A stretch of 64,000 nt of DNA, from contig NZ_JACJQU010000006.1 in NCBI RefSeq assembly GCF_014696825.1, positions 24,542 to 88,541 of the forward strand, written 5' to 3'. Source of the stretch: Anabaena sphaerica FACHB-251. Lineage in GTDB: Bacteria; Cyanobacteriota; Cyanobacteriia; Cyanobacteriales; Nostocaceae. Shown in pieces: positions 23,302 to 49,274 of the stretch. Numbering within the stretch: the first letter of the stretch is position 1; the number at the start of each line of letters is the position of its first letter. Under the pieces are notes generated by a model. It was given only the letters and a program-made list of their open reading frames with translations. It did no database searches and had not been told where the DNA came from. Position numbers and translations under genes: made by a program.

Positions 23302-23517
23302 TTCTAGTTCTCCAAGCTTGCTGTGTGTTGTGTTTGCGGTCGGTGGGGTGTCCTTGCCCGTTTTTGGTGGAGAGTGGGGAATGTGGCTCAAAATTCAGAA
23401 TGCAAAATCCAAAACTTAGAATTTTTAATTTTGAATCTTGAATTCCCAACTCCCCCCTGGGGACAAACCCCAGGCTTTCCCTGTACGGGCAGGGTTTGCC
23501 CCTACTATTTCTGTTCT

Positions 23518-23942: not shown

Positions 23943-25244
23943 ATGAAAGAACAGCTATTATGGGAATTAGAACAAGTAAATCTGCGTTTGAAGTCTGCAA
24001 AGACCAGAGTAACAATTCGAGAATCTAATGGATGTCTGCAATTACGGGCAACTTTACCCATTAAGCCAGGAGATGAGGATACAAGGGGAACTGGGAAAAA
24101 GCAATACAATCTCAGTTTGAATATTCCCGCAAATTTACCAGGATTGAAAACTGCGGAGGAGGAAGCTTATGAGTTAGGGAAGTTAATTGCTAGAAAAAGT
24201 TTTGTTTGGAATGATAAATATTTAGGAAATGAGGCAATTAAAAAGGATTTACGAACTATTGGTGAGTTATTGGTAAGGTTTGAGGAAGAATATTTTAAAA
24301 CCCATAAACGCACGACTAAAAGTGAACATAGTTTTTTTTATTATTTTTCTCGAATTAAGCGTTATACAAATGCTGATGATTTGGCAAATGGGGAAGTTTT
24401 AATTCAAGCGATTGAGAAAATAGATAAGGAATGGGCTAGATATAATGCTGTGAGGGCTATTTCTGTTTTTTGTCAACTTTTTAAAATTGATATTAATTTA
24501 ACTAGTTATTCTAAAGTTCCTGAAAGTAATTCTCGGAATGTTCCTACTGATAAGGAAATAGTTACTGGATTTTACAAGTTTGATGAATATCTAAATAATC
24601 GCGGTAAACAAGTTAATCAAGATGTGAAAGATAGTTGGCAACTTTGGCGATGGATTTATGGAATGTTAGCGGTTTTTGGTCTACGTCCCAGGGAACTTTT
24701 TGTTAATCCTCATATTGATTGGTGGTTGAGTAATGAAAATACAGATTTAACTTGGAAGGTTGATAAAGATTGTAAAACTGGTGAAAGGGAAGCTTTACCT
24801 TTATATAAGGAATGGATTGATGAATTTGATTTAAGGAATCCGAAGTATTTAGAAATGTTGGTAACAGCAATTAGTAAAAAAGACCAAAATAATCATGCAG
24901 AAATCACGGCTTTAATTCAAAGGGTGAGTTGGTGGTTTAGAAAAATTGGTTTAGATTTTAAACCCTATGATTTACGTCATGGTTGGGCAATTCGAGCGCA
25001 TATTTTGGGAGTTCCTATTAAGGCTGCGGCGGATAATTTGGGTCATAGTGTCCAAATTCATACGAAAACTTATCAACGTTGGTTTTCTTTAGATATGCGG
25101 AAGTTAGCAATAAATCAGGCTTTGAGTAAGCGGAATGAAGTGGATTTGATTAAGGATGAAAATACTGGGTTGAAAATGGAGAATGAACGGTTGAAGATTG
25201 AGGTAGAGAAGTTGAGGATGGAAATGGTTTATAAACGGAGTTAA
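23943..25244 (+). CDS. xisA: XisA-family site-specific tyrosine recombinase (nifD-element excisase)
   Basis: 433 aa, paralogous to the 40635..41990 ORF (LPIKPGD...TAEEEA.ELGKLIARK.FVWNDKYLG; WQLWRWIYGMLA.FGLRP; RHGWAIRAH.LG.PIKAAADNLGHSV). Sits about 280 bp inside the nifK-proximal border. Confidence 0.8.
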   Translation: MKEQLLWELEQVNLRLKSAKTRVTIRESNGCLQLRATLPIKPGDEDTRGTGKKQYNLSLNIPANLPGLKTAEEEAYELGKLIARKSFVWNDKYLGNEAIKKDLRTIGELLVRFEEEYFKTHKRTTKSEHSFFYYFSRIKRYTNADDLANGEVLIQAIEKIDKEWARYNAVRAISVFCQLFKIDINLTSYSKVPESNSRNVPTDKEIVTGFYKFDEYLNNRGKQVNQDVKDSWQLWRWIYGMLAVFGLRPRELFVNPHIDWWLSNENTDLTWKVDKDCKTGEREALPLYKEWIDEFDLRNPKYLEMLVTAISKKDQNNHAEITALIQRVSWWFRKIGLDFKPYDLRHGWAIRAHILGVPIKAAADNLGHSVQIHTKTYQRWFSLDMRKLAINQALSKRNEVDLIKDENTGLKMENERLKIEVEKLRMEMVYKRS

Positions 25245-27157: not shown

Positions 27158-28291
27158 ATGCTAGAAAAAGTAATACTTCATAATTTCAAAAGTCATAAAT
27201 CTACAGAACTTAATTTCGATAGTTCTCGATTACATGGACTCGTAGGAAAAAACAGTGCTGGTAAAACAACTGTTCTACAAGCATTGCATAATCTAAGTAG
27301 GCTTGCTGCTTCACAATTTAAAAATATTTTTCAGTATGATAAATCACCTGAATTTCTCACAACAATGGGGAAAAAAAATATGTCTGTCACTGCTAGTGGT
27401 TTTTGGGGATCTACCAATCGGCAGAATTGGCAAGCTTCTTATAGTTGGAAGCAGCAAAATATTGATTATTGGCATCCAACAGCATCATGGAACATAGATA
27501 AAAAAGAATATAGTTTGGAAGGATGGAAAAAATCATTAAGTGAAGCTCCATATCCAATTCCGCAATCTTTGAAATATGCTGTTTACCTCAAATTAGTTGC
27601 AAGTAATCTTGCCAAAGCAGCTTACAGTGAAGAAATTACGCCAAGAGTTGAGTTTGATGGTTCGTTATTAGCACCAACTTTAGATTTTTTGCGTAATGAA
27701 GCTCCAGATAAATTTCAATTAATAGAAGAAAAATTGAGTCGGATTGTCCCAAATGTACGCAGAATTGGCATCAAGCGAGCAAAAGTTTCAGTCATTCGTA
27801 AACGTTTAATCGAAGTTGATGGTAAGTCTATTTCTTATGATGAAACTCAGGAAATGGCAGGTCAAGAAGTTATATTAGATATGAATACAGGTGAACGTAT
27901 TCCAGCCCATGCAATTAGCGAAGGAACAATGTTAACTTTAGGATTATTAACTGTATTAATGAATCCTAATCAACCTAATTTAGTTTTATTAGATGATGTA
28001 GAACAGGGACTTCATCCTAAAGCACAACGTGAGTTAATGACTGTTTTTAAAGAAATCATTGCTGAAAATCCCAACTTGCAAATTATTTTCTCTACTCATT
28101 CTCCTTATATTATTGATGAACTTGTTCCTTCTCAAGTCCATATATTAAATAACAGTAATTCAGGTTTCACAATTGCCAAACGTTTGGATGAACATCCTGA
28201 TGTAGAATGGGCAAAAGAAACATTAACAACTGGTGAATTTTGGGATGCTGAAGGTGAAGATTGGGTGGTAGAAGGAGAAGTCAGTGATTGA
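27158..28291 (+). CDS. ABC-type AAA ATPase (AAA_21/AAA_15-like; OLD/PARIS AriA-like)
   Basis: 377 aa; Walker A GKNSAGKTT at N-terminus, Walker B LVLLDDVEQGLHP and STHSP H-loop at C-terminus. Stop overlaps start of next gene. Confidence 0.75.
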   Translation: MLEKVILHNFKSHKSTELNFDSSRLHGLVGKNSAGKTTVLQALHNLSRLAASQFKNIFQYDKSPEFLTTMGKKNMSVTASGFWGSTNRQNWQASYSWKQQNIDYWHPTASWNIDKKEYSLEGWKKSLSEAPYPIPQSLKYAVYLKLVASNLAKAAYSEEITPRVEFDGSLLAPTLDFLRNEAPDKFQLIEEKLSRIVPNVRRIGIKRAKVSVIRKRLIEVDGKSISYDETQEMAGQEVILDMNTGERIPAHAISEGTMLTLGLLTVLMNPNQPNLVLLDDVEQGLHPKAQRELMTVFKEIIAENPNLQIIFSTHSPYIIDELVPSQVHILNNSNSGFTIAKRLDEHPDVEWAKETLTTGEFWDAEGEDWVVEGEVSD

Positions 28292-31198: not shown

Positions 31199-32803
31199 AT
31201 GGCATATTACAAAAAGCTAGAATCAATATCAAAATTAGTCACTAACTTACTAAAAAATATCCTCCAAAATACTATTATGTGGAAAAACTTTTACATTAAA
31301 CCTAACGAAATTGGCATTTTATATCACCGCAGCGACTTTAAGAAAGTTTTACAACCTGGTGAATATACTTATTTTGGTCGTCATTGGCTAGTTAAAACTT
31401 ATGACCTCAATGAAGCAGAAGCGGATATTGAAAACCTAGAATTATTGTTGCGAAATCATGGAACAGAACTAGAACAATATCTACTAATTGTTAAAACTAC
31501 ATTTAACGAAGCTGCTTTAGTCCGTTTGGGTCAGAATTGGATAAGTATTGCTCCTAATCAATTACGGGCTTTTTGGCGAGGTTTTATAGAAGTAGAATTC
31601 CATCTTTTCAACTTAGAAGAAAACTGGGAATTGCCTAATTCTTTTGTCCAGCAATTGCGATCATTTGCGTTAAATGGACTGAAGAAATTCCAAATCTTTG
31701 AGTATGAGATTGGTTTACTATATGTACAAAATAATTTTACCCGACCTCTAGAACCAGGAGAGTATGCCTTTTGGTCAATAGATAAGACAGTAGCGGTGCG
31801 GAGTATTAGCCGGATTGTCCCTAACCCCGATTTTCCTCTAGAAGATATACTAATTGAAAAACATCCTGATTTTGTTGCTGCTTACTGTGAAATTGTGGAA
31901 TTACTGCCTTCGCAAGTTGCAATTGTGCGCTATCGAGGTAAGGTAATTTCTATTTTACCACCCACAAGCCGCAAACTATTTTGGCAAGGTGTGGCAGTGG
32001 AAATTATTGATATTAGCACAGATGCAAAATTATCACCTGCATTAATTTCTGAATTGGTGGAAGGAACAGCAGAAGTAAAAACACTGAGTCGAAACTATTT
32101 ACATATTTGTCAAGTTCCTCCCCAACATATTGGACTATTATATATTAATCAGGAATTTCAAACACAATTACAACCAGGATTAAATGCTTGGTGGTCATTT
32201 GGACGTTCTTGGCAAACGGAAACTATTGATTTGCGATTGCAAAACATGGAAGTTTCCGGTCAAGAAATCCTCTCTAAAGACAAAGTACCTTTGCGGTTAA
32301 ATTTAACTGCTGGTTTTCGCATTCAAGACCCATTAAAAGCAAAAAATGGGTTATCAGATATTACTGGATTCTTGTACAAAGAGTTGCAATTTGCTTTGCG
32401 TGGTGCAGTGGGTGAACGGACTTTAGATGCTTTGTTAGAAGATAAAGGCGCAATTGATAGCAGTATCTCTGAATATATTCGTCAAAAAGCCGCAGACTAT
32501 GGAATTGAAGTTGATTCTGTAGGTGTGAAAGATATTATTTTACCTGGAGAAATTAAGGCAATTTTGAGTAAGGTTGTTGAAGCTGAAAAAGCTGCTCAAG
32601 CAAATGTTGTCAGACGTAGAGAAGAGACTGCTGCCACTCGGAGTATGTTAAATACTGCGAAGGTGATGGAAGATAATCCGGTGGCGTTGCGGTTGAAGGA
32701 ATTGGAAGTTTTAGAACGTATTGCGGAGAAGATTGATCGGATTCAGGTAAATGGTAGTTTGGATAGTATTTTGACAGATTTGATTCGCATGAATCCGCAG
32801 TGA
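31199..32803 (+). CDS. SPFH/Band-7 (flotillin/slipin-like) domain protein with triplicated N-terminal module
   Basis: 534 aa; three repeats of a PGEY.FW...W motif block, then C-terminal SPFH region (GVKDIILPGEIKAILSKVVEAEKAAQANVVRRREETAA...). Confidence 0.6.
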   Translation: MAYYKKLESISKLVTNLLKNILQNTIMWKNFYIKPNEIGILYHRSDFKKVLQPGEYTYFGRHWLVKTYDLNEAEADIENLELLLRNHGTELEQYLLIVKTTFNEAALVRLGQNWISIAPNQLRAFWRGFIEVEFHLFNLEENWELPNSFVQQLRSFALNGLKKFQIFEYEIGLLYVQNNFTRPLEPGEYAFWSIDKTVAVRSISRIVPNPDFPLEDILIEKHPDFVAAYCEIVELLPSQVAIVRYRGKVISILPPTSRKLFWQGVAVEIIDISTDAKLSPALISELVEGTAEVKTLSRNYLHICQVPPQHIGLLYINQEFQTQLQPGLNAWWSFGRSWQTETIDLRLQNMEVSGQEILSKDKVPLRLNLTAGFRIQDPLKAKNGLSDITGFLYKELQFALRGAVGERTLDALLEDKGAIDSSISEYIRQKAADYGIEVDSVGVKDIILPGEIKAILSKVVEAEKAAQANVVRRREETAATRSMLNTAKVMEDNPVALRLKELEVLERIAEKIDRIQVNGSLDSILTDLIRMNPQ

Positions 32804-32922: not shown

Positions 32923-33738
32923 TTGGAAAATATAGCTTTGGATATTACCACAGAATTAAGAAATACAGAAAATTCTTTAAGAGATCTATACACTTACATC
33001 CTCTCTAACAAATTTGGTGAGGAATGGCATTTAAAGTGTGGAGTTAGTAGTGACCGAATAGATAAATGGAAAGCTCGAAAAGATTTAGAACATAAAAATT
33101 TCGGTTATAGCGATCCACGATTGATTTATTACGCTGATTTTTATGATCTAAAAACAATTCTTAAACACAATTGGCAACACGACTTATCCAAAGTATTTGG
33201 CAAATTGAAGGAACTAGAGGTTTTATTAGATATCCTAGAGGAATTAAGAAACCCTGATGCTCATAGAAGAAACTTACTCCCATACCAAAAATATTTAGCT
33301 ATGGGTATTAGCGGTAAAATTAGAACAGAAATTACAGGATATTTTAGTAAAATGGAAACTGGCGAATCATATTATCCAAGAATTGAATGTGTACAAGATA
33401 GCCTTGGAAATTCATGGGCAATAGGTGAGCAAAATACCCTATTTACAAATGAAGTGCTTAGACCAGGCAATGAAATTCAGTTTAATGTATCTGCTACAGA
33501 TCCTCTTGGTGAAACAATAGAGTTTACTGTTATGCCTGTATCATCCCCATGGGAATTTGAATGGAAAGAAAATGGCGATTTTTCACTTGTAATAAAAAAA
33601 CAATACGTGGGAAAAATTTTCTGGATTTGTATAGCAGTGCGATCCAAAAGGGAGTTTCATGCAATGTCTGAAGTTGGCCTAGGTTCAGTAGATGATACCG
33701 TTAAATTTGGATATGAAGTTCTCCCTCCTAAAAGATAA
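32923..33738 (+). CDS. HEPN-domain protein (Swt1-like; Rx4H motif RNPDAH)
   Basis: 271 aa; LEELRNPDAHRR matches the HEPN R-x4-6-H catalytic motif; very AT-rich. Confidence 0.5.
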   Translation: MENIALDITTELRNTENSLRDLYTYILSNKFGEEWHLKCGVSSDRIDKWKARKDLEHKNFGYSDPRLIYYADFYDLKTILKHNWQHDLSKVFGKLKELEVLLDILEELRNPDAHRRNLLPYQKYLAMGISGKIRTEITGYFSKMETGESYYPRIECVQDSLGNSWAIGEQNTLFTNEVLRPGNEIQFNVSATDPLGETIEFTVMPVSSPWEFEWKENGDFSLVIKKQYVGKIFWICIAVRSKREFHAMSEVGLGSVDDTVKFGYEVLPPKR

Positions 33739-37632: not shown

Positions 37633-37636
37633 AGCA

Positions 37637-38253: not shown

Positions 38254-38489
38254 TTTAGTCTAAGAACCAACCAGATAAAAAAGTTTTTCTATTTAACATT
38301 TTTGATTTAAGCCAAATTTAAGCCAAATCTCAAAACTAGACTCAATCTGAGTTATACTCTATGCAGTATCAAACAAACATTGTTACTCACAAACATAATC
38401 AATTTAATTTAGGCTAAAAATTAACTTCTCTTAATTCCACCACCAAAAAACCTGAAGTTAACGCACCTTTCAACCAACATTACTAGGTT

Positions 38490-39852
38490 CGGAGTAATCC
38501 CAAGAGTGCATTTGACGGAAAGGTAAGCCCATCTTTTGGAAGACATACTTCTCTTTCACACCAGAAGCAACTAAGTCTGGCTTCAATGCTTTGATGAATT
38601 CTTCAAATTCGTAAGCGGTAACGTCGTCATAAACGATAGTTCCGTTTTCGATGTAGTTGGTAGTACGTTTATAGTCGTCATTATGAGCGAACTCATAACC
38701 AGTACCAATCATCTTCATTCCCAAATCTTGGAACGCGGGAACAACGTGACGGGGACGTAGACCACCAACCATCATTGCTACAGTCTTACCTTCCAAGCGG
38801 GGGCGATACTTAGAAACGATCGCATCCATTGTGGGTTGGTACTTAGCAATTACTTTTTCAGCATTTGCTTGGATTTTTTCGTCAAACTTGGAAGCAATTT
38901 CGCGTAAAGATGCAGCAATCTTGGTAGGACCGAAGAAATTATACTCAAGCCAGGGTATACCATAAGCTTCTTCCATGTGACGGCTGATGTAGTTCATCGA
39001 GCGGTAACAGTGGATGAGGTTCATCTTCACGTTGGGGGTCATCAACATTTCGTTGATTGTACCGTCACCAGACCATTGAGCAACAACGCGCAAACCGATT
39101 TCTTCTAACAGAATACGGCTGGCCCAAGCATCACCACCGATGTTGTAGTCACCAATGATGGCTACATCATAAGGAGTTCCTTCAAACTTCAATGTACCGT
39201 CTTTCTTAGCCTTGTCTGCTCTGGGGAATACCCAGTCACGAATCATGTCGTTAGCAATGTGGTGTCCTAAAGACTGAGACACACCACGGAAACCTTCACA
39301 ACGGACAGGAACAACAGGCTTACCAATTGCTTTAGCAGACTTCTTAGCTACTGCTTCAATGTCATCCCCAATTAGACCAATGGGACATTCAGATTGAATA
39401 GAAACCCCACGATTTAAGGGGAATAATACGTCTAATTCTTCAATTAACTTGGTCAGTTTCTTGTCTCCACCGAACACGATGTCGCGTTCTTGGAAGTCGG
39501 AGGTGAAGTGCATTGTACCGAAGGTATCGACACCAGTTACACCTAAGTAGTAGTTACGACGACCAGACCAAGACCAGTAACCGCAACCTACAGGACCGTG
39601 GCTGATGTGGATCATGTCCTTAATAGGACCCCAAACCACACCTTTAGAACCTGCGTAAGCACAACCACGAGCGGTCATTACACCAGGAAGGGATTTGATG
39701 TTAGACTTAACACCGCAATCAGCCTTACCTTCTTCGTATACGTTTAAGTGCTTCTCGCGCTTTTTAGCAGCTTTTTCGGGGTAAGCTTTCAGAACTTCTT
39801 TAACTAGTTCTTTTCTTTGTTCAACAATCTTCTTGTCATCGGTCGAAGCCAT
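38490..39852 (-). CDS. nifD: nifD 5' segment (nitrogenase MoFe protein alpha subunit, first about 454 codons)
   Basis: [41 protein letters not shown]...HSWDYS, then frame runs into the element (EPSNVG*). Confidence 0.9.
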
Positions 39853-39997: not shown

Positions 39998-40480
<483 letters not shown>

Positions 40481-40634: not shown

Positions 40635-41990
40635 ATGCAAGCAGTAGAAAATCAAGAAAATCATCTGACGGCAAAATTAGCAACAGAATTAAAGGCAATT
40701 AATGGTAGACTAAGAGCCGCTAGGGTGAGTGTTTCTGTCAGAAAATCTGGTAATTCATTACAGTTGAGAAGTACCCTTCCTATTAAACCAGGTGATATTG
40801 ATAAAAACGGTATAGGCACAAAGCAATATGATATTTCTTTGGGGATACCATTCAGTTTTGATGGTTTAAATACTGCGGAAGAGGAAGCTAATGAGTTAGG
40901 AAAATTGATTGCTAGGAAACAATTTGTATGGAATGATAAATATTTAGGCAAAACAAGATTTAAAGCCAAATTTATAACAATTGGAGAGTTGATTTCTGAG
41001 TTTGAGCAAAACTATTTCCAAACTAGAAAACGCACGCTCAAAAGTAACAATACTTTTAATAGTTATTTCTATATTGCTAAAACACATTTGCCAAAGGATA
41101 AGTTAGCGATAGATGCTAATTTTATTGATGCTGTGAAATCTTGCCCTTCATCGGATAGTGTGAAAAATGAATTAATTAAGGTGATTAGGGTTTTGTGTAA
41201 ATGTTCTGGTTTAGAGGTTCCAGAATTGAGTAATTTAAAAATTAAAGCTATTTCTCAACGTAAACGTGATATACCCACTGATGCAGAAATAGAACAAGAA
41301 TATCTGAAGTTTGAAAATTATGCTATTAATCGTTCTAGTAAGTTGATAACTAGGGAAGATAGAAATAATTGGAAATTGTGGAGATGGATTTATGGAATGT
41401 TAGCGACTTATGGATTAAGACCAATTGAAATTTTTGTTAATCCTGATTTAAATTGGTGGTTATCTTCAGAAAATGTGATGAATACATGGCGTGTTAATGA
41501 AGAATGTAAAACGGGAGCAAGGGAAGCTTTACCATTATATCCGCGTTGGGTAGAAACTTTTAATTTAAAAACAGATACAGAAGCAATTAATTTATTAAAA
41601 GCGAAAATTAAAAATAAAGTTACGAGTAGAGAAATAAACTCTGCGCGACATGGTACAGATAGATGGTTTAGATTTGTGGGTGTGAATTTTCAACCTTATG
41701 ATTTACGTCACGCTTGGGCAATTAGAGCGCATTTAATGGGTATTCCCATTAAAGCTGCTGCTGATAATTTGGGTCATTCTGTGAATATGCACACTTCGAT
41801 TTATCAAAAGTGGTTTAGTTTGGAAAATCGTAAGGTTGCGATTGAGGAAGCGATTAAGAAAAAATCGAAGTCGGAAGATTTACAGGATATGGTGATTAGA
41901 TTGGAACAGGAAAATGAGAAGTTGAAAATTGAGAATGAGAGATTGAGGTTAGAAATGGGAAATCAAAGTTTAATGAGAGTGATTAATTAA
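40635..41990 (+). CDS. XisA/XisC-family site-specific tyrosine recombinase (candidate nifH-element excisase)
   Basis: 451 aa, clear paralogue of the 23943..25244 protein, including C-terminal RHAWAIRAHLMGIPIKAAADNLGHSV...YQKWFSL and coiled-coil tail. Confidence 0.8.
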   Translation: MQAVENQENHLTAKLATELKAINGRLRAARVSVSVRKSGNSLQLRSTLPIKPGDIDKNGIGTKQYDISLGIPFSFDGLNTAEEEANELGKLIARKQFVWNDKYLGKTRFKAKFITIGELISEFEQNYFQTRKRTLKSNNTFNSYFYIAKTHLPKDKLAIDANFIDAVKSCPSSDSVKNELIKVIRVLCKCSGLEVPELSNLKIKAISQRKRDIPTDAEIEQEYLKFENYAINRSSKLITREDRNNWKLWRWIYGMLATYGLRPIEIFVNPDLNWWLSSENVMNTWRVNEECKTGAREALPLYPRWVETFNLKTDTEAINLLKAKIKNKVTSREINSARHGTDRWFRFVGVNFQPYDLRHAWAIRAHLMGIPIKAAADNLGHSVNMHTSIYQKWFSLENRKVAIEEAIKKKSKSEDLQDMVIRLEQENEKLKIENERLRLEMGNQSLMRVIN

Positions 41991-42050: not shown

Positions 42051-43778
42051 CTATGGACAGTGATAAATTTTGTAATCATAGCCATAAATCCCAGGTAAAG
42101 CTTGGGTATCAGCAATACATTTCTTAACCTCTTCAGCTACAGGTGCATGAAAATTAACTAACCATAAATCTAAAGGTCGTGGTAAAGATTTTAAAGTATT
42201 TTCTAGAGCTTTTGTAGAAGTCTTGGGATCTTTTGCTTGATGAGCTAAAAGAAATTGGGAAATAACTTGTGAACCAGAAAATTTTAATTTCCAGGCTATA
42301 CCCATCATTTCACCAGTTTGGACTAAGCTTTTGTGGGTTGTGGCAATGAGAACTGGAACCTGCGAATTTTGCTCAATCAATGGAACTAACAAATCAGGAC
42401 GGTAGTATTTACGATAACCAAGATTAGACGTAACAGTAATGGCGCTTATTAATCCCATCAACCAAATGAGAGTAACGGCTTTTTTTCCCGTGATTCCCCA
42501 TTTACCGATATCTTGATTTTGATAACAAACTGCTAAACTAGCTCCTAATAAAATGATGACAGTGGGAAAGTAAACAAAGTTGTAACGAGCGCCCCGTGTG
42601 ATGTCAATACCTAGAATATAGGTAAATATAAAGAATAAAGCGATCGCTCCCAATACTACCCCAGCTAACACCTGAGTCATTAAACTATTTTCAGGTTGTT
42701 GTAGCTGCAATTTAAACCCACTAACTAAAATCGGTGTTGCCCAAATAAAGAAAATCAACATTACTAACCCAGAGAAAATCACAATTGTGAGTTGTGGTGC
42801 TTCTACTGGCAGCAAAGATATCATTGTAATCCATGCTGCTAAAGCCTGAAAAATAGGGTTTACCCAATCTAGTCCAACGCGCGAAACTTGAATCCAATCA
42901 GTCATACTACTGCGATACGGATTCTGTAAAAAGCTGGGCAACCATACTAAACCTGCTACACCAGTACCAACTGCAACAGCATAAATACGCCACCACAGAG
43001 GTGAATAGGAAATGGGGAGGTGAGGAGAATTTATCTTTACCTTTGCCTGTGTTTGGTGATACCAAGGTAGCAGGATTAAAACCAAAGCTTCAGCGCAGAG
43101 GGTGAGGGTGAAGAAATAGTGAGTAGCAATTCCTAAAGCGTTAATTCCTAGCCAGGAAATTGCTACGGTGATAGGTAATTGTGTATGGTTTTGTAGGTGA
43201 CGTATGGCAATTACTAAGCAAGCTAAGGAAGCCATCACCCACAAAATTGCCAATGTATAATGACGGGCTTCTTGTGCTATAAAAATACCGTAGGGTGAGA
43301 CTGCCATCATAGCAGCGGCCATCTGTCCCACTAATCGAGAACGAAAGGCTAACCTACCTAATATATACGCGAAGGGAATTGAGGCTGCACCTAGTAAAGC
43401 CGGAAGTGAACGCGCTCCAAACAGGGATATTAAGCCTTCTGGATGGGGAAATAGCTTCATCCACAGATGAGCTAGGACAAAATACAGTGGTGGATGGTTA
43501 TCTTGTGTGATTATGGTATGAATCACATCCCCAATACTAGCTGCTGGGTTTGGTTGGAGTGGTTGCAATAAAATATTAGGTGCGATCGCTTGATCAAGGG
43601 GTACTTGTAAAAAATTATTCCCCAGACTAAACACCAAGGTGGCAAATTCATCAGTCCAAGGAGGCTTTCCCGTCAAATTAGCTAAACGTAAGCTAAGACC
43701 AATAATAAACCAAATTAGTAATAGCAGCGGATGAAACCAGCCAGCATAGACAGTAGAGCGCCAATTAAACAATTGCAT
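42051..43778 (-). CDS. GT-C fold membrane glycosyltransferase (family 39/83, PMT/ArnT-like)
   Basis: 575 aa, more than 10 TM helices, DE motif in first periplasmic loop (KPPWTDEFATL). Confidence 0.6.
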   Translation of the reverse strand: MQLFNWRSTVYAGWFHPLLLLIWFIIGLSLRLANLTGKPPWTDEFATLVFSLGNNFLQVPLDQAIAPNILLQPLQPNPAASIGDVIHTIITQDNHPPLYFVLAHLWMKLFPHPEGLISLFGARSLPALLGAASIPFAYILGRLAFRSRLVGQMAAAMMAVSPYGIFIAQEARHYTLAILWVMASLACLVIAIRHLQNHTQLPITVAISWLGINALGIATHYFFTLTLCAEALVLILLPWYHQTQAKVKINSPHLPISYSPLWWRIYAVAVGTGVAGLVWLPSFLQNPYRSSMTDWIQVSRVGLDWVNPIFQALAAWITMISLLPVEAPQLTIVIFSGLVMLIFFIWATPILVSGFKLQLQQPENSLMTQVLAGVVLGAIALFFIFTYILGIDITRGARYNFVYFPTVIILLGASLAVCYQNQDIGKWGITGKKAVTLIWLMGLISAITVTSNLGYRKYYRPDLLVPLIEQNSQVPVLIATTHKSLVQTGEMMGIAWKLKFSGSQVISQFLLAHQAKDPKTSTKALENTLKSLPRPLDLWLVNFHAPVAEEVKKCIADTQALPGIYGYDYKIYHCP

Positions 43779-44129
43779 CTGTTCTCAATTATGATCTTCA
43801 CCTGCTAACAATAACTCAATGCTAGGCTTATGAACTCTCTACCAAATTAGATAAAAATCATCAGATAGCAGGACTGTAAGAGGATGTTTGAAAAGTTTTG
43901 AATGTATAAATAAACCCCTCTCCAAACCTCTCCCCGACGCGGGGAGAGGCTTTGAAACCCCCATTCCCTCGTAGGGAAGGGGGGTTAGGTTGCTGAAGAT
44001 TATTGGTTTCATCTAATACTTTTCAAACAACCTCTAAGCGTTAGGTAAGTTACCGCAGATATGGCTATCACTCCACAAATGTCAAAGGTACAAAGAAGAA
44101 AAGTTACTTTATTGTGGAACTTATTTCTT

Positions 44130-44340
44130 AAAGGTTACTCTAAATCTTCTCTCAGGAGGCGATTTTTGATCATCAATATAATCTTCAAACTGTATAAGTG
44201 ATAAACCTGCATCTACAAATTTCATGACTTCATCTTTAGTCAATGGATAAGGTACTTTTTCTAGTGCATCTTCCACATTTCTACCCCGACAAATGACAAG
44301 TAATATTCCTCCAGGAGCAAGGAAATTTGCTATAATCCTA
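44130..44340 (-). pseudogene. C-terminal fragment of a class I SAM-dependent methyltransferase gene
   Basis: ...FLAPGGILLVICRGRNVEDALEKVPYPLTKDEVMKFVDAGLSLIQFEDYIDDQKSPPERRFRVTFKK*, no N-terminal catalytic part. Confidence 0.45.
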
Positions 44341-44459
44341 ATTTTAGCATTAAATCACCTACTTTGACCCACTAAATGCGATCGCTCTGCCCAAAGCATC
44401 AAAAATGCGATCGCTTTATTTGATTATTGATGATTATTTTTTCTAGACCGCACCTCGAA

Positions 44460-44852
44460 AGCCAAATCTGCACGATAAAAGCACACATCAAACTCTGCAA
44501 AAAAATTCATGTGTCCAAGTATGACGGGTGCTTCTCTAGATTCTGTCCAAGCAAATGCAAGCAAAACAGGCGAAAATTCAGCAATGGTAGCTGATAAAAC
44601 TAATCCCCGTGCTGGGAAATGGGCTAAATTCCCGATTAACTAAATTGGAACTTTTTGCTGTTCCCAAATTGCTCCTAGTTGCAGACCTATTTCATAGGGT
44701 AATACATTAACGCTTGCACCTGTATCTAGCAAAGCCATAACTTCAACAGAATTGTTTTTGTGAGTTAATGTTAATGGTAAATAAGGCATATTGCTGGAAA
44801 CACCAGGAGTATTACTTCGCTCAATAAAGGGAAATCTTTTACTTTCAAGCAT
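44460..44852 (-). pseudogene. Retropepsin-like (clan AA) aspartic protease gene, apparently interrupted by stop/frameshift at 44640
   Basis: ALLDTGASVNVLP (DTGA catalytic motif) in the 70-aa ORF; downstream frame continues with ...FFAEFDVCFYRADL typical of family C-terminus. Confidence 0.4.
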
Positions 44853-45105
44853 AGCCTTCTTCCTTTGCTGCTGTTAGCATATCAGATAATGCTTGAGCCG
44901 CTTCATGGGCATGATATGGAGACCAAACAACGGCTTCAGTAGATGCTAATTGTTCCAGCAGCAAGTTTTCCTGTTCTTTATGATCAGGTGATTCTAAATT
45001 GCATCCTTCTTCTTTTGCTACAGCTAATAATAGAAAATGAATAAGACGCAATTTATCTTGGTGGGATAGCTGACTAACAGTAGGTAGCAATTCATTTAGT
45101 GGCAT
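44845..45105 (-). CDS. Hypothetical small protein (86 aa) upstream of and overlapping retropepsin-like gene
   Basis: ORF overlap of 8 bp suggests operon. Confidence 0.35.
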   Translation of the reverse strand: MPLNELLPTVSQLSHQDKLRLIHFLLLAVAKEEGCNLESPDHKEQENLLLEQLASTEAVVWSPYHAHEAAQALSDMLTAAKEEGYA

Positions 45106-45311
45106 AGCGCAAGTTATGACAGAATGAAATCATAATTCTAAGATAACAGCATTCTAATCGCACTCCACAAACCACAACATCGGAAATGCGTTAGCGAAGC
45201 TTACCGAAGGTATCGCACTCCATAACCTAAAACACCGGAAATGCGTTAGCGAAGCTTACCGAAGGTATCGCACCCATAACCCACAACACCGGAAAAGCCA
45301 TCCTGTTAATA

Positions 45312-48300
45312 TCAATCTTTTACTAATCCCAAATCTGGTAAATTATTAACAATTTCCACCGTTTCTAAACTCACAGTAATTACCTGTTTAATTAACCTAA
45401 CAATATATTCTTCATCATCAAGACGATTTGGATCATTTGTAATTCCGCTACGTTTATCTGTGGTAACTTGATATTGGTCTATAATCCAATCTAAAGCGGA
45501 ACGGTTGCCTAAGCGATATGCAAATACTTCTGGGGGTATACCTGTTAAGGTGAGAAAGTCGTTATATTTGATTTGGGTTTTATCTTTAGAAAGGCGCATT
45601 TTTTCTACACGCCAATCAATGGGTAAGTCTTTATTTTCTAAATGTTTAAGGCGATATTCTGGCTGTTTTTCATAGTTAACATGAATTTCTGCTAGTCGTT
45701 TTCCTGCTGTTGCAAAAGGATGAAATTCTGGTGCAAAGGGAATGCGGGGAAGTTCTCGTTTTAGGTTTGCTGCGTAGCGTTCCCGGTAGTGGGGATGATG
45801 CAGCACTGCATAGATATAATAGAATATATCCCATTTGGTGATTGTTTCATCCTGGTAATGGTTTTGATATTGTTTTAATACCCAATCTGTAATATTTTCT
45901 TGGCGGTTTGTTCCGTCTTCGTGGTAGGTGTAGAAAGAAAACCATTGAGGAACTGTACCAATACCTAAAAAATTAAGGTCAGGAATTTTATTACTGAAAA
46001 GAGTAGCAAATGATTGTTGCGCTCCAAGACCTGTAACACATATAAAACAATTTTCTTCTTCTATTTGGGAAGTTGGAGAAATAGATGGAAATTGATATCT
46101 TCTTTCATTAAGATGTCTATCAAAATATAAGAATGTATTAGTAAAAGGTCGATATAGAGAATGACGTAAATATCGCTCCTCGAAAGCGATACAAGTTTCT
46201 CTCTTAACATAAGTTCTTAAACCATCTGACCAACTTATTTGATGGTCATCTAAATTCACAAAATTATTAATGCTTATTTCTCTATCCTTCCGATTTTTCC
46301 ATCGAAATATATGATCGTTATAAAAATCAATAGTTTTCTGCATATTTTTAGCAAGTTCATCAGCGTTAAAGTTATATGCCCAAGCATCACGGCTTGTTTT
46401 GACTCCTCCGCTATAAAGCTTAAAGATTGCATAAGCCGCTATACCGTCAGTTGCTTTTGCTTCCTTTGTTCCAAGGGGTGTAAAATCCTGATACTCATCT
46501 TTTAAATCGTCTGTTAACCAATTATTTTTATTGTCTGGCTGTAACTCTTTCCATTCTGTGCTGACTACTGTTTTCAGCTTTTCAATAATTTCAAATTTCT
46601 CTTTTCTAGTCGCTCTAAAATCAACCTCATGATAAAATATTTTATGCTCAGTTGAACCTGTTTTTCTGACAAGAAAAGTTATTGATACTCCCACCATCGC
46701 AGCTAATCCAAAAACTGTATGCTGCTCACCTAGAGGAATACCATCACGCATTGAATCTTTGCGTATATCTCCTTGTAAATTAAATATATAAATATTATCA
46801 AAATCATTTTGTAGATGCTTTCGCATTCCATCAAAAGCCAATTTATCTAAAAAACTGCTATTGGTTACAAAAGCAACAACGCCATCATTTTTAAGCCGAT
46901 CAGATGCCCAACGAATTGCTTTAACATAAGGATCGGAAAGAGCATTTTTATTCGTTGCTTTTGAATCCTTAGAGTAGGTTTCACTTACGCGCTTATCCAT
47001 TACTAGATACTTACGATTTCGATTGTTTATATCCTCTGATTGATAAGCATTATAGGGAGGGTTGCCAATAATTACGAAAATAGGAGATTGCTTTTGTCTC
47101 TCAACACGCTTTGTATTTTCTGTAGAAAAAAGTGCTAAACTTAGTTGTTTGGCTTCAGCTAAATCAAAAGTATCAACTAAACAAATTCCTTCAAAAGATT
47201 TATATTCCCCAGCTTGCTCAAAATACTCATGCTCAATATTCATCGAAGCAATATAATAAGGTAATAACATCACCTCATTACAATGTAACTCATGTTCATA
47301 TTTATAAGGTAAAGCCGATTTTTGAATTTCGGCAATTTCTCGCATTATCCGAATAATAAAATTACCCGTTCCCACAAAAGGATCAAGAATATGTACACCC
47401 TTATCAACCAACGATTTACCAAACTCTCTCTGTAAAATATCCTCAACACTTTTCACCATAAAATTAACAATTGGTTGAGGAGTATAAACAATTCCGTGAG
47501 TATCTGCAACTTTCACAGAAAAACCTTGAAAAAATCGCTCATAAATTTTATTGAGAAAATCCTGTTTTTGGGAAAAATTATCAATAGTTGCGGCGGTTTC
47601 TTCAATTGCACCATAAAACCGATCTAAACTGCTTAAAAAATGACTGCGACTAAAAGATTTAGAAGTTAAAGCATTAATCACCTTTTCAATTTCTACAGCA
47701 ATAATATTCCGTTGTGCAAAATCAGGATTATTAAACACACTTCTAAAAATGCGCTCAGTCAATAAATGCTGAATCAACATTTCCTCAACTGCTGCTTCTG
47801 AAAGATTGGGATTAATTGACTGACGACAAAGTTGTAAAAATTCTGCAAAAGCATCAATAAATTTTTTATTTTTCTTACTCTGTTCTCGAATTAATTCTAA
47901 TAATGCCGTTGCGTTTTCCTTAACTCGAAAACCAAACTCATTAGATGCTTTTTCCCATTGTTCAATTGCTGGAGGACGATATTCAAAAAACTGCCGAACT
48001 ACATCTACTAAATTTTGTGGGTTAGTAATATCTTCATCCATTACCAGTTTACCATCCTGGTAAAGAATAGCCCTTTCTGGTTGTTGAAAAATAATATTAT
48101 CTTTAGGATAATCAACAGCCAATTTTTTCTGTACTTCTTTCTTTAAATTATCCTTACTATCCTTAGCTTCCCAATAAGCACGAGGCAAGTTAAAATCATC
48201 AACTAAAGCCCCATCAACACGAAGCGGTTGTTTTTTCGGTCTTTTAATAGCATACTCTTGTACAAGAGTCCATTTAAACTGTTGACAGCAAGACTCAAGC

Positions 48301-48422
48301 AACTTTTGAAAAGCAGCTTTTACCGCAGTTTCATGAACCACACCCAATTTTTTAAAATTTTCTAACTCTTCGTAATATTGCTTAATAGGTTTGTGGGTTG
48401 GTTTGAGATTAAGACTAGACAT
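45312..48422 (-). CDS. Type IIG/IIL restriction-modification fusion enzyme (MmeI-like: N-terminal PD-ExK-like nuclease region plus N6-adenine MTase)
   Basis: 1036 aa; N-terminal D...EAK region (RVDGALVDDFNLPRAYWEAKDSKDNL); MTase motif I LDPFVGTGNF and motif IV GNPPYN; long C-terminal TRD. Confidence 0.65.
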   Translation of the reverse strand: MSSLNLKPTHKPIKQYYEELENFKKLGVVHETAVKAAFQKLLESCCQQFKWTLVQEYAIKRPKKQPLRVDGALVDDFNLPRAYWEAKDSKDNLKKEVQKKLAVDYPKDNIIFQQPERAILYQDGKLVMDEDITNPQNLVDVVRQFFEYRPPAIEQWEKASNEFGFRVKENATALLELIREQSKKNKKFIDAFAEFLQLCRQSINPNLSEAAVEEMLIQHLLTERIFRSVFNNPDFAQRNIIAVEIEKVINALTSKSFSRSHFLSSLDRFYGAIEETAATIDNFSQKQDFLNKIYERFFQGFSVKVADTHGIVYTPQPIVNFMVKSVEDILQREFGKSLVDKGVHILDPFVGTGNFIIRIMREIAEIQKSALPYKYEHELHCNEVMLLPYYIASMNIEHEYFEQAGEYKSFEGICLVDTFDLAEAKQLSLALFSTENTKRVERQKQSPIFVIIGNPPYNAYQSEDINNRNRKYLVMDKRVSETYSKDSKATNKNALSDPYVKAIRWASDRLKNDGVVAFVTNSSFLDKLAFDGMRKHLQNDFDNIYIFNLQGDIRKDSMRDGIPLGEQHTVFGLAAMVGVSITFLVRKTGSTEHKIFYHEVDFRATRKEKFEIIEKLKTVVSTEWKELQPDNKNNWLTDDLKDEYQDFTPLGTKEAKATDGIAAYAIFKLYSGGVKTSRDAWAYNFNADELAKNMQKTIDFYNDHIFRWKNRKDREISINNFVNLDDHQISWSDGLRTYVKRETCIAFEERYLRHSLYRPFTNTFLYFDRHLNERRYQFPSISPTSQIEEENCFICVTGLGAQQSFATLFSNKIPDLNFLGIGTVPQWFSFYTYHEDGTNRQENITDWVLKQYQNHYQDETITKWDIFYYIYAVLHHPHYRERYAANLKRELPRIPFAPEFHPFATAGKRLAEIHVNYEKQPEYRLKHLENKDLPIDWRVEKMRLSKDKTQIKYNDFLTLTGIPPEVFAYRLGNRSALDWIIDQYQVTTDKRSGITNDPNRLDDEEYIVRLIKQVITVSLETVEIVNNLPDLGLVKD

Positions 48423-48725
48423 ATAATTAAAAGTGACGTAATAATATTAGCATATTATACAGAATAATTTTGATATTATTACTTGGGTCGCGAAAGTATA
48501 AAAACTTAATATTTTCTCTCTGCGCCTCTGCGTCTCTGCGTGAGGTAACACATTTATCAAAAATCATGTATCCCCCTTGACACAAGGTAAAAAATAGGGT
48601 AAAAAAACCATAAACCCTGAACAAAAACCCCATTTACCCAAAAATTCCCAGGGCAAAAATAGGGAACAAAAAAAACAAAATCCTCAACCAATTGCATCAA
48701 CAAAAACCCTAAATAATCCCCCTTA

Positions 48726-49274
<549 letters not shown>

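What the first reader, a model, noticed from the sequence alone, without database searches (positions are those of the whole stretch)
45312..48422. MmeI-like single-chain restriction-modification enzyme carried on the nifH element
A 1036-aa ORF combines an N-terminal D-(x)n-EAK nuclease-like region with gamma-type amino-MTase motifs (LDPFVGTGNF ... GNPPYN) and a long C-terminal region. This is the Type IIG/IIL organisation. It sits next to fragments of a SAM-MTase and a retropepsin-like gene, suggesting repeated insertions and decay inside the element. If active, it methylates the whole vegetative genome while its own gene is deleted from heterocysts on excision.
Basis: partly seen in the sequence, partly recalled or inferred. 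Interest (0 to 1): 0.55.

Follow-up and report, generated by a model that had tools for sequence, protein, structure and literature searches.

The report
DrdV-type restriction enzyme on nifH element
An intact gene for a one-protein cut-and-methylate anti-virus enzyme of a known, structurally solved type sits inside the 8.3-kb DNA element that interrupts the nitrogenase gene nifH in this Anabaena; the enzyme is ordinary, but related nifH elements often carry a different defence gene at the same spot.

Summary
Window 45312..48422 (-) is an uninterrupted 1036-aa ORF inside an 8,275-bp element that splits nifH at nt 429 and is bounded by CCGTGAAGGT repeats. [quoted passage not shown] All five DrdV nuclease active-site residues and the methyltransferase motifs are invariant, and the nuclease domain is under strong purifying selection (dN/dS 0.05). 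"MmeI-like" is right for architecture but not for family: MmeI models and the MmeI structure are not matched. The database labels "helicase" and "Type ISP" are wrong, because there is no ATPase domain. The nifH-429 element is documented, and a close relative excises in Anabaena cylindrica heterocysts, but its RM cargo has not been described in the papers I read. The same gene occupies the same slot beside the nifH 5' fragment in at least four other Nostocales. Other members of the element family carry different defence genes there: an N6_N4 methyltransferase with or without a DpnII-type nuclease, a true MmeI-family enzyme, or a NERD/UvrD pair. One element has no cargo. A hypervariable centre (aa 556-825) suggests swapped specificity. 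Verdict: new member of a known kind, in a moderately interesting context.

The parts
45312..48422 (-). Intact 1036-aa gene for a DrdV-family Type IIL restriction-modification enzyme
   Evidence: ORF. PDB 7lo5_A (DrdV) E=4e-207 over residues 13-1029; family profile E=2e-296. PADLOC REase_MTase_IIG full length, E=6e-192. Foldseek top hit DrdV, E=3e-60.
47928..48422 (-). N-terminal PD-(D/E)XK nuclease domain (aa 1-165), with active-site residues E31, D70, E85, K87, K100
   Evidence: These residues align to DrdV E25, D64, E79, K81, K94 (alignment; residues named in the DrdV paper). All are invariant in 19- and 24-sequence alignments. The model domain superposes on the isolated DrdV nuclease chains 7lvv_C/D with TM 0.90-0.91 and rmsd 1.7 A. 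dN/dS is 0.05 against the UHCC 0204 orthologue.
47568..47927 (-). Helical coupler/connector (aa 166-285)
   Evidence: Pfam ISP_coupler at residues 167-282, E=3e-18; dN/dS 0.08.
46653..47567 (-). Gamma-class N6-adenine methyltransferase domain (aa 286-590), with motif I D347-P-F-V-G-T-G353 and motif IV N454-P-P-Y457
   Evidence: Pfam N6_Mtase and Eco57I. The motifs are invariant. NPPY aligns to DrdV N448/Y451, which contact the flipped adenine.
45312..46652 (-). C-terminal target-recognition domain (aa 591-1036, plus stop)
   Evidence: Pfam Type_ISP_C at residues 665-1009, E=3e-102. It aligns to the LlaGI/LlaBIII TRDs.
45948..46757 (-). Hypervariable centre (aa 556-825) between conserved arms; probable specificity cassette
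   Evidence: blastn homology to relatives stops at 46755 and resumes at 45947. Amino-acid identity here is 36-66%, against 72-98% elsewhere. dS is 1.56 here and 0.20 in the nuclease domain.
48726..48735 (-). Direct repeat CCGTGAAGGT at the nifH 5' junction (recombination core)
   Evidence: It matches the CCGTGAAG repeat at nifH position 429 in Hilton et al. 2016, Table B.
40451..40460 (-). Direct repeat CCGTGAAGGT at the nifH 3' junction
40635..41990 (+). XisA/XisC-type tyrosine recombinase of the nifH element (451 aa)
   Evidence: Weak Phage_integrase hit. It is 80-93% identical to recombinases at the same end of nifH elements in other Nostocales. Homologues carry PF27551 XisAC_N and PF27132 XisAC_2nd.
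48723..49163 (-). nifH 5' fragment (146 codons, then a stop inside the element)
   Evidence: Fer4_NifH profile positions 1-138, E=6e-78.
39998..40450 (-). nifH 3' fragment
   Evidence: Fer4_NifH profile positions 152-270, E=1e-45; junction read.
44124..44342 (-). 3' remnant of a SAM-dependent methyltransferase gene
   Evidence: tblastn against the intact 233-aa gene of L004: aa 161-233, 75% identity, E=3e-34.
44424..44852 (-). Aspartic-protease-like (DTGA) frame with one in-frame stop at 44640-44642; probable pseudogene
   Evidence: Frame translation. The family hits are weak and below cutoff.
45157..45298 (+). About 2.6 copies of a 55-bp tandem repeat, 14 bp downstream of the RM stop codon
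   Evidence: Homologous sequence lies upstream of the RM gene in Cuspidothrix (L064:2011-2098).
42051..43778 (-). 575-aa multi-pass membrane protein gene; cargo specific to this copy of the element
   Evidence: ORF. No Pfam or NCBIfam hit. Absent from the other nifH elements compared.

Best explanation
[quoted passage not shown] By homology with DrdV (inferred, not shown here), a monomer bound at a short asymmetric site flips out one adenine and slowly methylates one strand, which protects the host. [quoted passage not shown] The recognition sequence is unknown and is probably not DrdV's CATGNAC, because three of the four named base-contact positions differ. The gene is cargo in a variable slot of a documented mobile element: the nifH-429 XisA-type excision element, bounded by CCGTGAAGGT repeats. 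The slot abuts the nifH 5' fragment and is co-oriented with nifH. Its most likely role is ordinary defence of the vegetative filament. When the recombinase removes the element during heterocyst differentiation, the gene leaves the chromosome with it. This should be harmless, because heterocysts do not replicate their DNA. Shown here: the ORF, domains, catalytic residues, selection, element borders, and conservation of the cargo. Inferred: enzymatic activity, the multi-site licensing mechanism, the specificity, and excision in this strain.
For: Full-length collinear match to DrdV (7lo5_A, E=4e-207, residues 13-1029), rising to E=2e-296 with a family profile. Foldseek ranks DrdV first (E=3e-60), and the nuclease domain superposes on the DrdV nuclease chains with TM 0.90-0.91 and rmsd 1.7 A. 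DrdV active-site residues D64, E79, K81 (mutation abolishes catalysis), E25 and K94 correspond to D70, E85, K87, E31 and K100, all invariant. NPPY and motif I are invariant. No helicase domain is found. Purifying selection against the UHCC 0204 orthologue gives dN/dS 0.05 (nuclease), 0.08 (coupler) and 0.12 (MTase). More than 7,999 homologues of about 1,030 aa were found. Element: repeats and restored NifH frame; the same position and repeat appear in Hilton 2016 Table B; excision of such an element was shown in A. cylindrica heterocysts. The same RM gene sits directly after the nifH 5' fragment, with the same recombinase (80-93% identical) at the far end, in Anabaena UHCC 0204, Anabaena FACHB-1237, Dolichospermum planctonicum NIES-80 and Umezakia ovalisporum. 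The DrdV mechanism is described in bioRxiv 10.1101/2021.01.06.425610.
Against: There are no activity or methylome data for this strain. The charged residues that form DrdV's dimer and nuclease-nuclease interfaces are not conserved: K8/R12/D15/E41/R46 become Q15/E19/N22/Q47/T52; D224/E230/D231 become N231/Q237/R238; K251/R252/K259 become S260/H261/R268 (my mapping from the alignment). The same assembly geometry is therefore not guaranteed. The promoter-like site upstream (48502-48475) is no better than chance. Neighbouring cargo genes are decaying, so the slot is not uniformly maintained. The AlphaFold model is only moderate overall (pLDDT 65, pTM 0.45), and the TRD centre is unresolved. In several sister elements the gene is split into two ORFs, and their activity is unknown.
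Confidence: 0.8

Rival explanations
1. The gene helps to stabilise the element. If a vegetative cell lost the nifH element, it would lose methylation while residual enzyme remained, and it would be damaged (post-segregational killing). The RM cargo would then enforce retention of the element in the dividing lineage. Excision in terminal, non-replicating heterocysts would stay harmless.
For: RM or other defence genes recur in the same slot of this element family although they are unrelated to each other. A small fraction (3-12%) of DNA from vegetative cultures of A. cylindrica already shows the excised state, so loss is a realistic risk for the element. The logic that excision is safe in heterocysts follows from their terminal state (established knowledge).
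Against: Nuclease and methyltransferase sit in one polypeptide, so they dilute together. In DrdV, cleavage needs three to four site-bound molecules while methylation needs one. Cleavage should therefore fall faster than methylation as the enzyme is diluted (inference). Elements with little or no such cargo persist: Gloeotrichia has a 3-kb element with only the recombinase and a 200-aa gene, and Anabaena sp. 90 has only small hypothetical genes. Defence genes accumulate on many mobile elements without being addictive.
Confidence: 0.12
2. The ORF is intact but no longer restricts. It acts only as a methyltransferase, or it is a recently silenced relic in a decaying element.
For: Adjacent genes are a remnant and a probable pseudogene. 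Sister elements carry split versions. Anabaena sp. 90 is reported to have 13 disrupted RM genes (PMC3542288). No convincing promoter was found.
Against: There are no stops or frameshifts in 3,108 nt. All nuclease catalytic residues are invariant. The nuclease domain is the most constrained part of the protein, at 98% identity and dN/dS 0.05, which is not expected if only methylation mattered.
Confidence: 0.1
3. It is a Type ISP enzyme or a helicase, as public annotation says ('DEAD/DEAH box helicase', 'type ISP restriction/modification enzyme'). That would make it an ATP-driven translocating nuclease-methyltransferase.
For: Source names. Pfam Type_ISP_C and ISP_coupler hits. Strong matches to LlaGI and LlaBIII.
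Against: The LlaGI and LlaBIII matches cover only query residues 185-1031, which correspond to positions 578 and 742 onward in those chains, downstream of their ATPase modules. No helicase or ATPase domain was found by Pfam, NCBIfam or PADLOC. At 1036 aa, against 1,406-1,578 aa, there is no room for one. The DrdV paper states that DrdV shares the MTase-TRD with Type ISP but lacks translocation.
Confidence: 0.01
4. It is a member of the MmeI family proper.
For: There is a weak MmeI_Mtase hit.
Against: MmeI_Mtase scores 20.9 bits, below its cutoff of 27, and MmeI_N, MmeI_hel, MmeI_TRD and MmeI_C give no hits. The MmeI structure is not found by sequence or by profile at E<=10, nor among the top 50 fold matches. 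A genuine MmeI-family protein in the Sphaerospermopsis nifH element hits all of those Pfam models, which shows what a member looks like.
Confidence: 0.02

Closest known systems
DrdV (Deinococcus wulumuqiensis; PDB 7LO5/7LVV), Type IIL RM enzyme
   Same: Same length class (1029 vs 1036 aa) and the same four-domain order. It is collinear over the whole chain (E=4e-207). All five nuclease active-site residues and the NPPY adenine pocket are identical. The nuclease fold superposes at 1.7 A.
   Different: Base-contact positions differ: DrdV K486 stays K, but K488 becomes A, D803 becomes N, and K807 becomes V with a 3-aa insertion (alignment; contacts named). The target is therefore probably not CATGNAC. 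The salt-bridge residues of the oligomer interfaces are not conserved. The host and genomic context also differ: a cyanobacterial developmental excision element.
Type ISP enzymes LlaGI / LlaBIII (PDB 5FFJ, 4XQK)
   Same: The coupler, methyltransferase and TRD are homologous (E=1e-158 and 2e-147; Pfam Type_ISP_C, ISP_coupler).
   Different: There is no RecA-like ATPase/translocase module, and the N-terminal nuclease is DrdV-type. Cleavage therefore cannot be by translocation and collision.
MmeI and BpuSI (Type IIL/IIG prototypes)
   Same: Same logic and domain order: a single chain with an N-terminal PD-ExK nuclease, a gamma-class MTase and a TRD. For MmeI, one-strand methylation and a need for multiple sites are reported.
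   Different: No detectable sequence-family relationship. BpuSI is only a distant fold match (rank 13, 11% identity), and MmeI is not in the top 50.
nifH-429 excision element of Anabaena cylindrica PCC 7122 / ATCC 29414, Anabaena sp. 90 and A. circinalis AWQC310F
   Same: Same insertion point (nifH nt 429) and the same CCGTGAAG core repeat. A tyrosine recombinase sits at the 3'-nifH end on the opposite strand. GC content is below the genome average.
   Different: Size and cargo differ: 5.7-7.8 kb there, 8.3 kb here. The Anabaena sp. 90 copy has only small hypothetical genes. An RM enzyme in this element is not mentioned in those papers: 'restriction' and 'methylase' occur zero times in Hilton 2016, text and supplements.
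Type I hsdS-style specificity swapping
   Same: Conserved arms flank a hypervariable recognition segment. Extra partial copies of the arms lie nearby in some loci (L064, L069, L070).
   Different: Here the variable segment lies within a single-chain enzyme, or between two ORFs in the split relatives. No invertase or inverted repeats were examined, so active shuffling is not shown.

Membership tests
Type IIL restriction-modification enzymes (class) | Single polypeptide with an N-terminal PD-(D/E)XK nuclease carrying the catalytic D...ExK | tested here: met
   D70, E85 and K87 (plus E31 and K100) are invariant. The fold matches the DrdV nuclease domain with TM 0.90-0.91.
Type IIL restriction-modification enzymes (class) | Gamma-class N6-adenine methyltransferase (motif I before motif IV NPPY) in the same chain | tested here: met
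   Pfam N6_Mtase and Eco57I. D347-G353 and N454-Y457 are invariant.
Type IIL restriction-modification enzymes (class) | C-terminal target-recognition domain in the same chain; no separate S subunit | tested here: met
   Type_ISP_C at residues 665-1009, E=3e-102, within the single ORF.
Type IIL restriction-modification enzymes (class) | No ATP-dependent motor domain | tested here: met
   No helicase or ATPase hit in Pfam, NCBIfam or PADLOC.
Type IIL restriction-modification enzymes (class) | Methylates one strand of an asymmetric site and cuts at a fixed distance; needs multiple sites | not testable with these tools
   This needs a methylome and cleavage assays. It is known for DrdV.
DrdV family | Full-length collinear homology to DrdV, including the nuclease domain | tested here: met
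   E=4e-207 over residues 13-1029; profile E=2e-296; Foldseek E=3e-60.
DrdV family | Charged residues of the DrdV dimer and nuclease-nuclease interfaces (a property of DrdV itself; not shown to define the family) | tested here: inconclusive
   The residues are not conserved (mapping; residues listed). The family has its own invariant residues in the same helices, for example R238 and N239.
MmeI family | Matches to the MmeI-specific domain models (MmeI_N, MmeI_hel, MmeI_Mtase, MmeI_TRD, MmeI_C) | tested here: not met
   Only MmeI_Mtase is hit, at 20.9 bits, below its cutoff of 27. A true member in L095/L096 hits all of them.
MmeI family | Detectable sequence or fold relationship to the MmeI structure | tested here: not met
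   Absent at E<=1 (sequence) and E<=10 (family profile), and not in the top 50 Foldseek hits.
Type ISP enzymes | RecA-like SF2 ATPase/translocase between the nuclease and the methyltransferase | tested here: not met
   The matches to LlaGI and LlaBIII start after their ATPase modules, and there is no ATPase domain.
Type ISP enzymes | Coupler-MTase-TRD module | tested here: met
BREX PglX/BrxX methyltransferase | No nuclease domain; encoded with brxA/B/C/Z/L genes | tested here: not met
   A nuclease domain is present. PADLOC's best hits are REase_MTase_IIG. The ORFs I scanned in the element give no brx-family hit. BrxX and PglX are only distant fold hits, at ranks 35 and 42.
nifH-429 XisA-type heterocyst excision element | Interrupts nifH at about nt 429, with CCGTGAAG direct repeats | tested here: met
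   The repeat starts at nifH nt 429 by my count. CCGTGAAGGT lies at both junctions. It matches Hilton Table B.
nifH-429 XisA-type heterocyst excision element | XisA/XisC-type tyrosine recombinase at the end next to the nifH 3' fragment, on the opposite strand | tested here: met
   40635..41990 (+). It falls in a discrete clade at >=78% identity, with the next relatives at about 50% (nifD XisA). Homologues carry XisAC_N and XisAC_2nd.
nifH-429 XisA-type heterocyst excision element | Precise excision during heterocyst differentiation | not testable with these tools
   Shown for the A. cylindrica element. Here, only the restored reading frame can be shown.

The most novel reading that the evidence does not exclude
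The nifH-429 developmental excision elements are dedicated carriers of interchangeable restriction-modification or defence modules, held in one fixed slot that abuts the nifH 5' fragment and is co-oriented with nifH. These modules help the element persist. Loss of the element from dividing vegetative cells would be penalised by the RM system. Excision in terminal, non-replicating heterocysts costs nothing. This would explain why such 'useless' interruptions of nif genes are so stable.
Probability: 0.12. Interest if true: 0.7.

Novelty: new member of a known kind. Interest (0 to 1): 0.4.

Why it matters
The enzyme itself adds a cyanobacterial member to a family that already has a solved structure and a worked-out mechanism. 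It also corrects a common mis-annotation ('helicase', 'Type ISP'). Three things matter more. First, it is a likely barrier to genetic manipulation of Anabaena and Dolichospermum strains, with a specificity that should differ between strains, because the recognition segment is swapped even between sister elements. Second, it shows that the variable cargo of the nif-interrupting excision elements, which has no assigned function in the papers I read, is often RM or defence genes in this element family. That gives a concrete, testable idea about why the elements persist and where they come from. Third, the family offers natural fused and split versions, and many alternative recognition cassettes between conserved arms. 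These are useful raw material for specificity engineering of Type IIL enzymes.

Tried and rejected
- Exact-sequence look-up of the protein on public contigs found nothing. The organism came from the cluster name instead.
- MmeI-family membership was rejected.
- Type ISP or helicase identity was rejected.
- I first suspected that the two-ORF relatives were simply broken genes, or genes interrupted by introns. In the nine loci I inspected, both halves are open, the break is at the same domain boundary, and in most the second ORF has its own Met start. Where an ORF lies in the gap, it is a toxin-antitoxin gene by Pfam (ParD, ParE, DUF5615/PIN_10, DUF4926). I did not run an RNA-family search on those gaps. 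My guess that one gap ORF is HicB-like got no Pfam support.
- Promoter and terminator scans around the gene were no better than shuffled sequence.
- There is no NtcA-type GTAN8TAC site near the RM gene or the recombinase, and the whole-window count is at chance.
- There is no Rfam family in 39900-49300.
- No extra RM fragments or silent cassettes exist anywhere in the window.
- Structure prediction from a 24-sequence alignment gave only a moderate model (pLDDT 65). I used it only for the nuclease domain and for ranking folds.
- I did not try to infer the recognition site from site avoidance, because 64 kb is too little sequence.


Full report
**1. The observation**

Window 45312..48422 (minus strand) is an uninterrupted ATG-initiated ORF of 1036 aa.
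- D70 ... E85-A-K87
- HILDPFVGTGNF
- IIGNPPYN

nifH is split. A 146-codon 5' part lies at 48723..49163, and a 3' part ends at 39998. Both are clear Fer4_NifH matches, covering profile positions 1-138 and 152-270. Reading the two junctions shows a 10-bp direct repeat, CCGTGAAGGT, at 48726..48735 and 40451..40460. Recombination between the copies would restore ...AMPIREG|KAQEIY.... The interrupting element is therefore 8,275 bp. Its GC content (about 0.33-0.39 per kb) is at or below that of the flanking nif genes.

**2. What the protein is**

Domain searches:
- Pfam finds Type_ISP_C (residues 665-1009, E=3e-102), ISP_coupler (167-282), N6_Mtase and Eco57I. MmeI_Mtase scores only 20.9 bits, below its cutoff of 27, and the other MmeI-specific models give no hits.
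- PADLOC's best full-length model is REase_MTase_IIG (E=6e-192).

Comparison with solved structures:
- The best match by far is 7LO5/7LVV, at E=4e-207 and collinear over residues 13-1029. Foldseek labels this entry 'cryoEM structure DrdV-DNA complex'.
- LlaGI and LlaBIII (Type ISP) match only residues 185-1031. That region lies downstream of their ATPase modules.
- A profile built from 19 family members gives DrdV E=2e-296. It still does not find MmeI or BpuSI at E<=10.
- An AlphaFold model built from 24 homologues is only moderate overall (pLDDT 65), but the nuclease domain is confident.
- Foldseek ranks DrdV first (E=3e-60), then LlaGI and LlaBIII. The isolated DrdV nuclease-domain chains superpose on the model with TM 0.90-0.91 and rmsd 1.7 A. 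BpuSI is a distant 13th, BrxX/PglX are further down, and MmeI is not in the top 50.

The protein is therefore a DrdV-family Type IIL enzyme. It resembles MmeI in architecture and logic but does not belong to that family. It lacks a motor domain, so it is not a Type ISP enzyme. The public names for it and its relatives ('DEAD/DEAH box helicase', 'predicted helicase', 'type ISP restriction/modification enzyme') are mis-annotations.

**3. Is it likely to be active?**

The DrdV paper (bioRxiv 10.1101/2021.01.06.425610) names the nuclease active site as D64 and E79 (metal ligands), K81 (mutation abolishes catalysis), K94 and E25. It names N448 and Y451 in the adenine pocket.
- In the alignment, these residues correspond to D70, E85, K87, K100, E31, N454 and Y457 of the window protein.
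- All are invariant in a 19-sequence alignment reaching down to 50% identity, and in a second 24-sequence alignment.

Against the orthologue in the nifH element of Anabaena sp. UHCC 0204, dN/dS by domain is as follows:

| Region | dN/dS | Note |
|---|---|---|
| Nuclease | 0.05 | 98% aa identity |
| Coupler | 0.08 | |
| Methyltransferase | 0.12 | |
| TRD | 0.44 | |

The nuclease is the most constrained part. That argues that restriction, and not only methylation, is being maintained.

The family is very large: at least 7,999 hits at E<=1e-20. The best 120 are nearly all 1,020-1,046 aa long.

**4. Specificity**

Of the base-contact residues named for DrdV, K486 is retained, but K488 becomes A, D803 becomes N, and K807 becomes V next to a 3-residue insertion (my reading of the alignment; residues named). 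The target is therefore probably not CATGNAC.

The gene is also a mosaic:
- Its first 1.7 kb (about 84% nt identity) and last 0.64 kb (about 91%) are conserved with relatives.
- The centre (45948..46757, aa 556-825) has almost no DNA homology with them.
- At protein level, the centre is 36-66% identical, against 72-98% elsewhere, in every relative compared.
- Between the window and UHCC 0204, dS is 1.56 in the centre and 0.20 in the nuclease domain.

This is the pattern expected of a recognition cassette exchanged by recombination between conserved arms. It predicts different recognition sequences even in sister elements.

**5. The element and its cargo**

The insertion point and repeat match the 'nifH 429, CCGTGAAG, tyrosine recombinase at the end' variant listed by Hilton et al. 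2016 (PMC4874684, Table B). That variant occurs in A. circinalis AWQC310F, A. cylindrica PCC 7122 and Anabaena sp. 90. The 5,736-bp A. cylindrica copy was shown by heterocyst genome sequencing and qPCR to be excised in about 100% of heterocyst genomes and in 3-12% of DNA from vegetative cultures (bioRxiv 10.1101/629832). The element is therefore known.

Its RM cargo has not been described in the papers I could read. 'Restriction' and 'methylase' occur zero times in Hilton's text and supplements. The Anabaena sp. 90 paper discusses RM systems and nifH elements separately, and its copy of the element contains only small hypothetical genes.

**6. The cargo is shared**

The 79%-identical protein of Anabaena sp. 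UHCC 0204 lies immediately after a 145-aa nifH fragment and is followed by:
- DUF433 and UPF0175 genes
- an intact 220-aa SAM methyltransferase (as called on the contig; the longest ORF is 233 aa), whose 3' remnant is window 44124..44342
- a Uma2 gene
- a recombinase 93% identical to the window's

The same arrangement, with recombinases 80-85% identical, occurs in Anabaena sp. FACHB-1237, Dolichospermum planctonicum NIES-80 and Umezakia ovalisporum. Close homologues in Microcoleus and in metagenomic contigs sit in ordinary, non-nif contexts, so the gene also moves independently of the element.

**7. The slot is variable**

The recombinase defines a discrete clade: about 65 clusters at >=78% identity, then a drop to about 50% for nifD-type XisA. 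I sampled that clade without reference to the RM gene, and confirmed positions relative to the nifH fragments by tblastn.

| Lineage (loci) | Cargo beside the nifH 5' fragment |
|---|---|
| Dolichospermum, Aphanizomenon (L086-L094) | 245-aa N6_N4 methyltransferase; an HTH protein in most copies; a DpnII/MboI-type nuclease in one copy (L093) |
| Sphaerospermopsis kisseleviana (L095-L097) | N6_N4 MTase-Mrr fusion, a TaqI_C-type methyltransferase, and a genuine MmeI-family enzyme |
| Nostoc sp. CENA543 (L099, L100) | NERD-UvrD/TOTE pair plus HicA |
| Gloeotrichia (L101) | None: a minimal 3-kb element with the recombinase and a 200-aa gene |

In every case the gene next to the nifH 5' fragment is on the nifH strand. 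The sample is small: five informative lineages found through the recombinase, plus five (including the window) found through the RM gene. It suggests that the slot preferentially holds RM or defence genes.

**8. Mechanism proposed**

Shown here: an intact DrdV-type gene with all catalytic residues, under purifying selection, on a nifH-429 element.

Inferred from DrdV:
- Monomers bound at an asymmetric site slowly methylate one adenine on one strand.

Caveat: the charged residues that form DrdV's two oligomer interfaces are not conserved in this protein (my mapping), so the assembly contacts may differ.

Inferred context:
- The gene protects vegetative filaments.
- It leaves the chromosome with the element in heterocysts. 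This should be harmless, because heterocysts are terminal and do not replicate DNA.

An addiction role, with the RM system penalising loss of the element from vegetative cells, is attractive given section 7. I rate it as unlikely for this enzyme for three reasons:
- The nuclease and the methyltransferase dilute together.
- Cleavage needs higher-order assembly than methylation does.
- Elements with empty slots persist.

**9. Comparison, novelty and score**

- The enzyme is a new member of a known kind (the DrdV family, Type IIL).
- The element is a documented variant.
- What appears to be new is that the two are linked, and that the slot holds interchangeable defence modules.
- I score interest at 0.4. 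The core finding is ordinary and well explained, and the context offers a testable idea about why nif-interrupting elements persist.

Noticed in passing
L070:10001-14667, L071:10001-13717, L075:10001-13186, L064:2363-6252, L073:10001-13383, L076, L077, L083, L084 (relatives; not in the window): Many relatives encode the enzyme as two ORFs that break at the same domain boundary, equivalent to window aa ~587-595. The N-ORF (~590 aa: nuclease, coupler, MTase) ends '...GVSVNI(L/F)VKK*'. The C-ORF (~445-470 aa: TRD) in most has its own Met start, 'M(K/R)KAKIYYARMDEFW'. The gap is 66-1,571 nt. Several gaps hold toxin-antitoxin genes by Pfam (ParD, ParE, DUF5615/PIN_10, DUF4926). This may be a functional two-subunit variant of a Type IIL enzyme, with a TA insertion hot spot.
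   Followed up: partly
L064:6638-6808 and 7099-7182; L069:10829-11296; L070:12520-12693: Extra partial copies of the conserved arms of the RM gene (aa 524-587 and the last 28-156 aa) lie near the gene in some loci. They could be scars of cassette exchange, or silent cassettes. There are none in the window.
   Followed up: partly
L073:8518-13386 (MAG chromosome OY970166): An uninterrupted 298-aa nifH, apparently outside a nif cluster, is followed 587 bp later by the split form of the same RM gene (5' part 83% nt identical to the window's). No recombinase lies within 10 kb. How the RM gene came to lie beside an intact nifH paralogue is unexplained.
   Followed up: partly
L086-L102 (nifH-429 elements of Dolichospermum, Aphanizomenon, Sphaerospermopsis, Nostoc CENA543, Gloeotrichia): The slot beside the nifH 5' fragment holds unrelated RM or defence genes in different lineages, always on the nifH strand: an N6_N4 MTase with or without a DpnII/MboI nuclease; an MTase-Mrr fusion, a TaqI_C MTase and an MmeI-family enzyme; or a NERD-UvrD/TOTE pair. 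Gloeotrichia has an empty 3-kb element.
   Followed up: partly
window ~23500-38500: A second excision element appears to interrupt nifD. The nifD 5' part is at 38470..39852 (-), a XisA-like 433-aa recombinase is at 23943..25244 (+), and nifK is at 21766..23391 (-). Its cargo includes an AAA_21/AbiEii-type ATPase (27158..28291), a Band 7 protein (31199..32803), a weak HEPN_Swt1-like protein (32923..33738), a cyclophilin and an ADP-ribosylglycohydrolase. I did not map its borders.
   Followed up: partly
window 45157-45298: About 2.6 tandem copies of a 55-bp unit begin 14 bp after the RM stop codon. The unit occurs nowhere else in the window. In Cuspidothrix (L064:2011-2098) the homologous sequence lies upstream of the RM gene. 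Its function is unknown.
   Followed up: partly
window 42051-43778 (-): A 575-aa multi-pass membrane protein gene has no Pfam or NCBIfam hit. Among the nifH elements compared, it is present only in this copy.
   Followed up: no
window 44424-45105 (-): This is a two-gene cassette. An 86-aa ORF (44845..45105) overlaps by 8 nt the start of a DTGA aspartic-protease-like frame, which carries a single in-frame stop (44640-44642). The 5' part of the cassette has homologues upstream of the RM gene in L070 (9854-9966) and L064 (2194-2328), so it seems to be mobile.
   Followed up: partly
L071:6444-8646; L092-L094: In Dolichospermum planctonicum NIES-80 and some Aphanizomenon contigs, the nifH 5' fragment is split a second time, at about codon 49-54. 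That is consistent with the second nifH element variant (position ~143-150, serine recombinase) reported for Anabaena sp. 90.
   Followed up: no
L101:1-8188 (Gloeotrichia echinulata): The DNA next to the nifH 3' fragment, probably a nifD element, carries another N6_Mtase/Type_ISP_C protein (>1,012 aa, 26% identical to the window enzyme). It is followed by a 1,258-aa SNF2-type helicase and an AAA_15/AAA_21 ATPase. This is a different multi-gene system built on the same MTase-TRD module.
   Followed up: no
window 48427-48633 (-): The 300-bp spacer between the nifH junction and the RM start contains a GC-rich repeat-like stretch (...CGCAGAGACGCAGAGGCGCAGAGAG...). It is partly conserved, as a 62-aa ORF, upstream of the UHCC 0204 orthologue. 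It is probably non-coding, and any role in regulation is untested.
   Followed up: no
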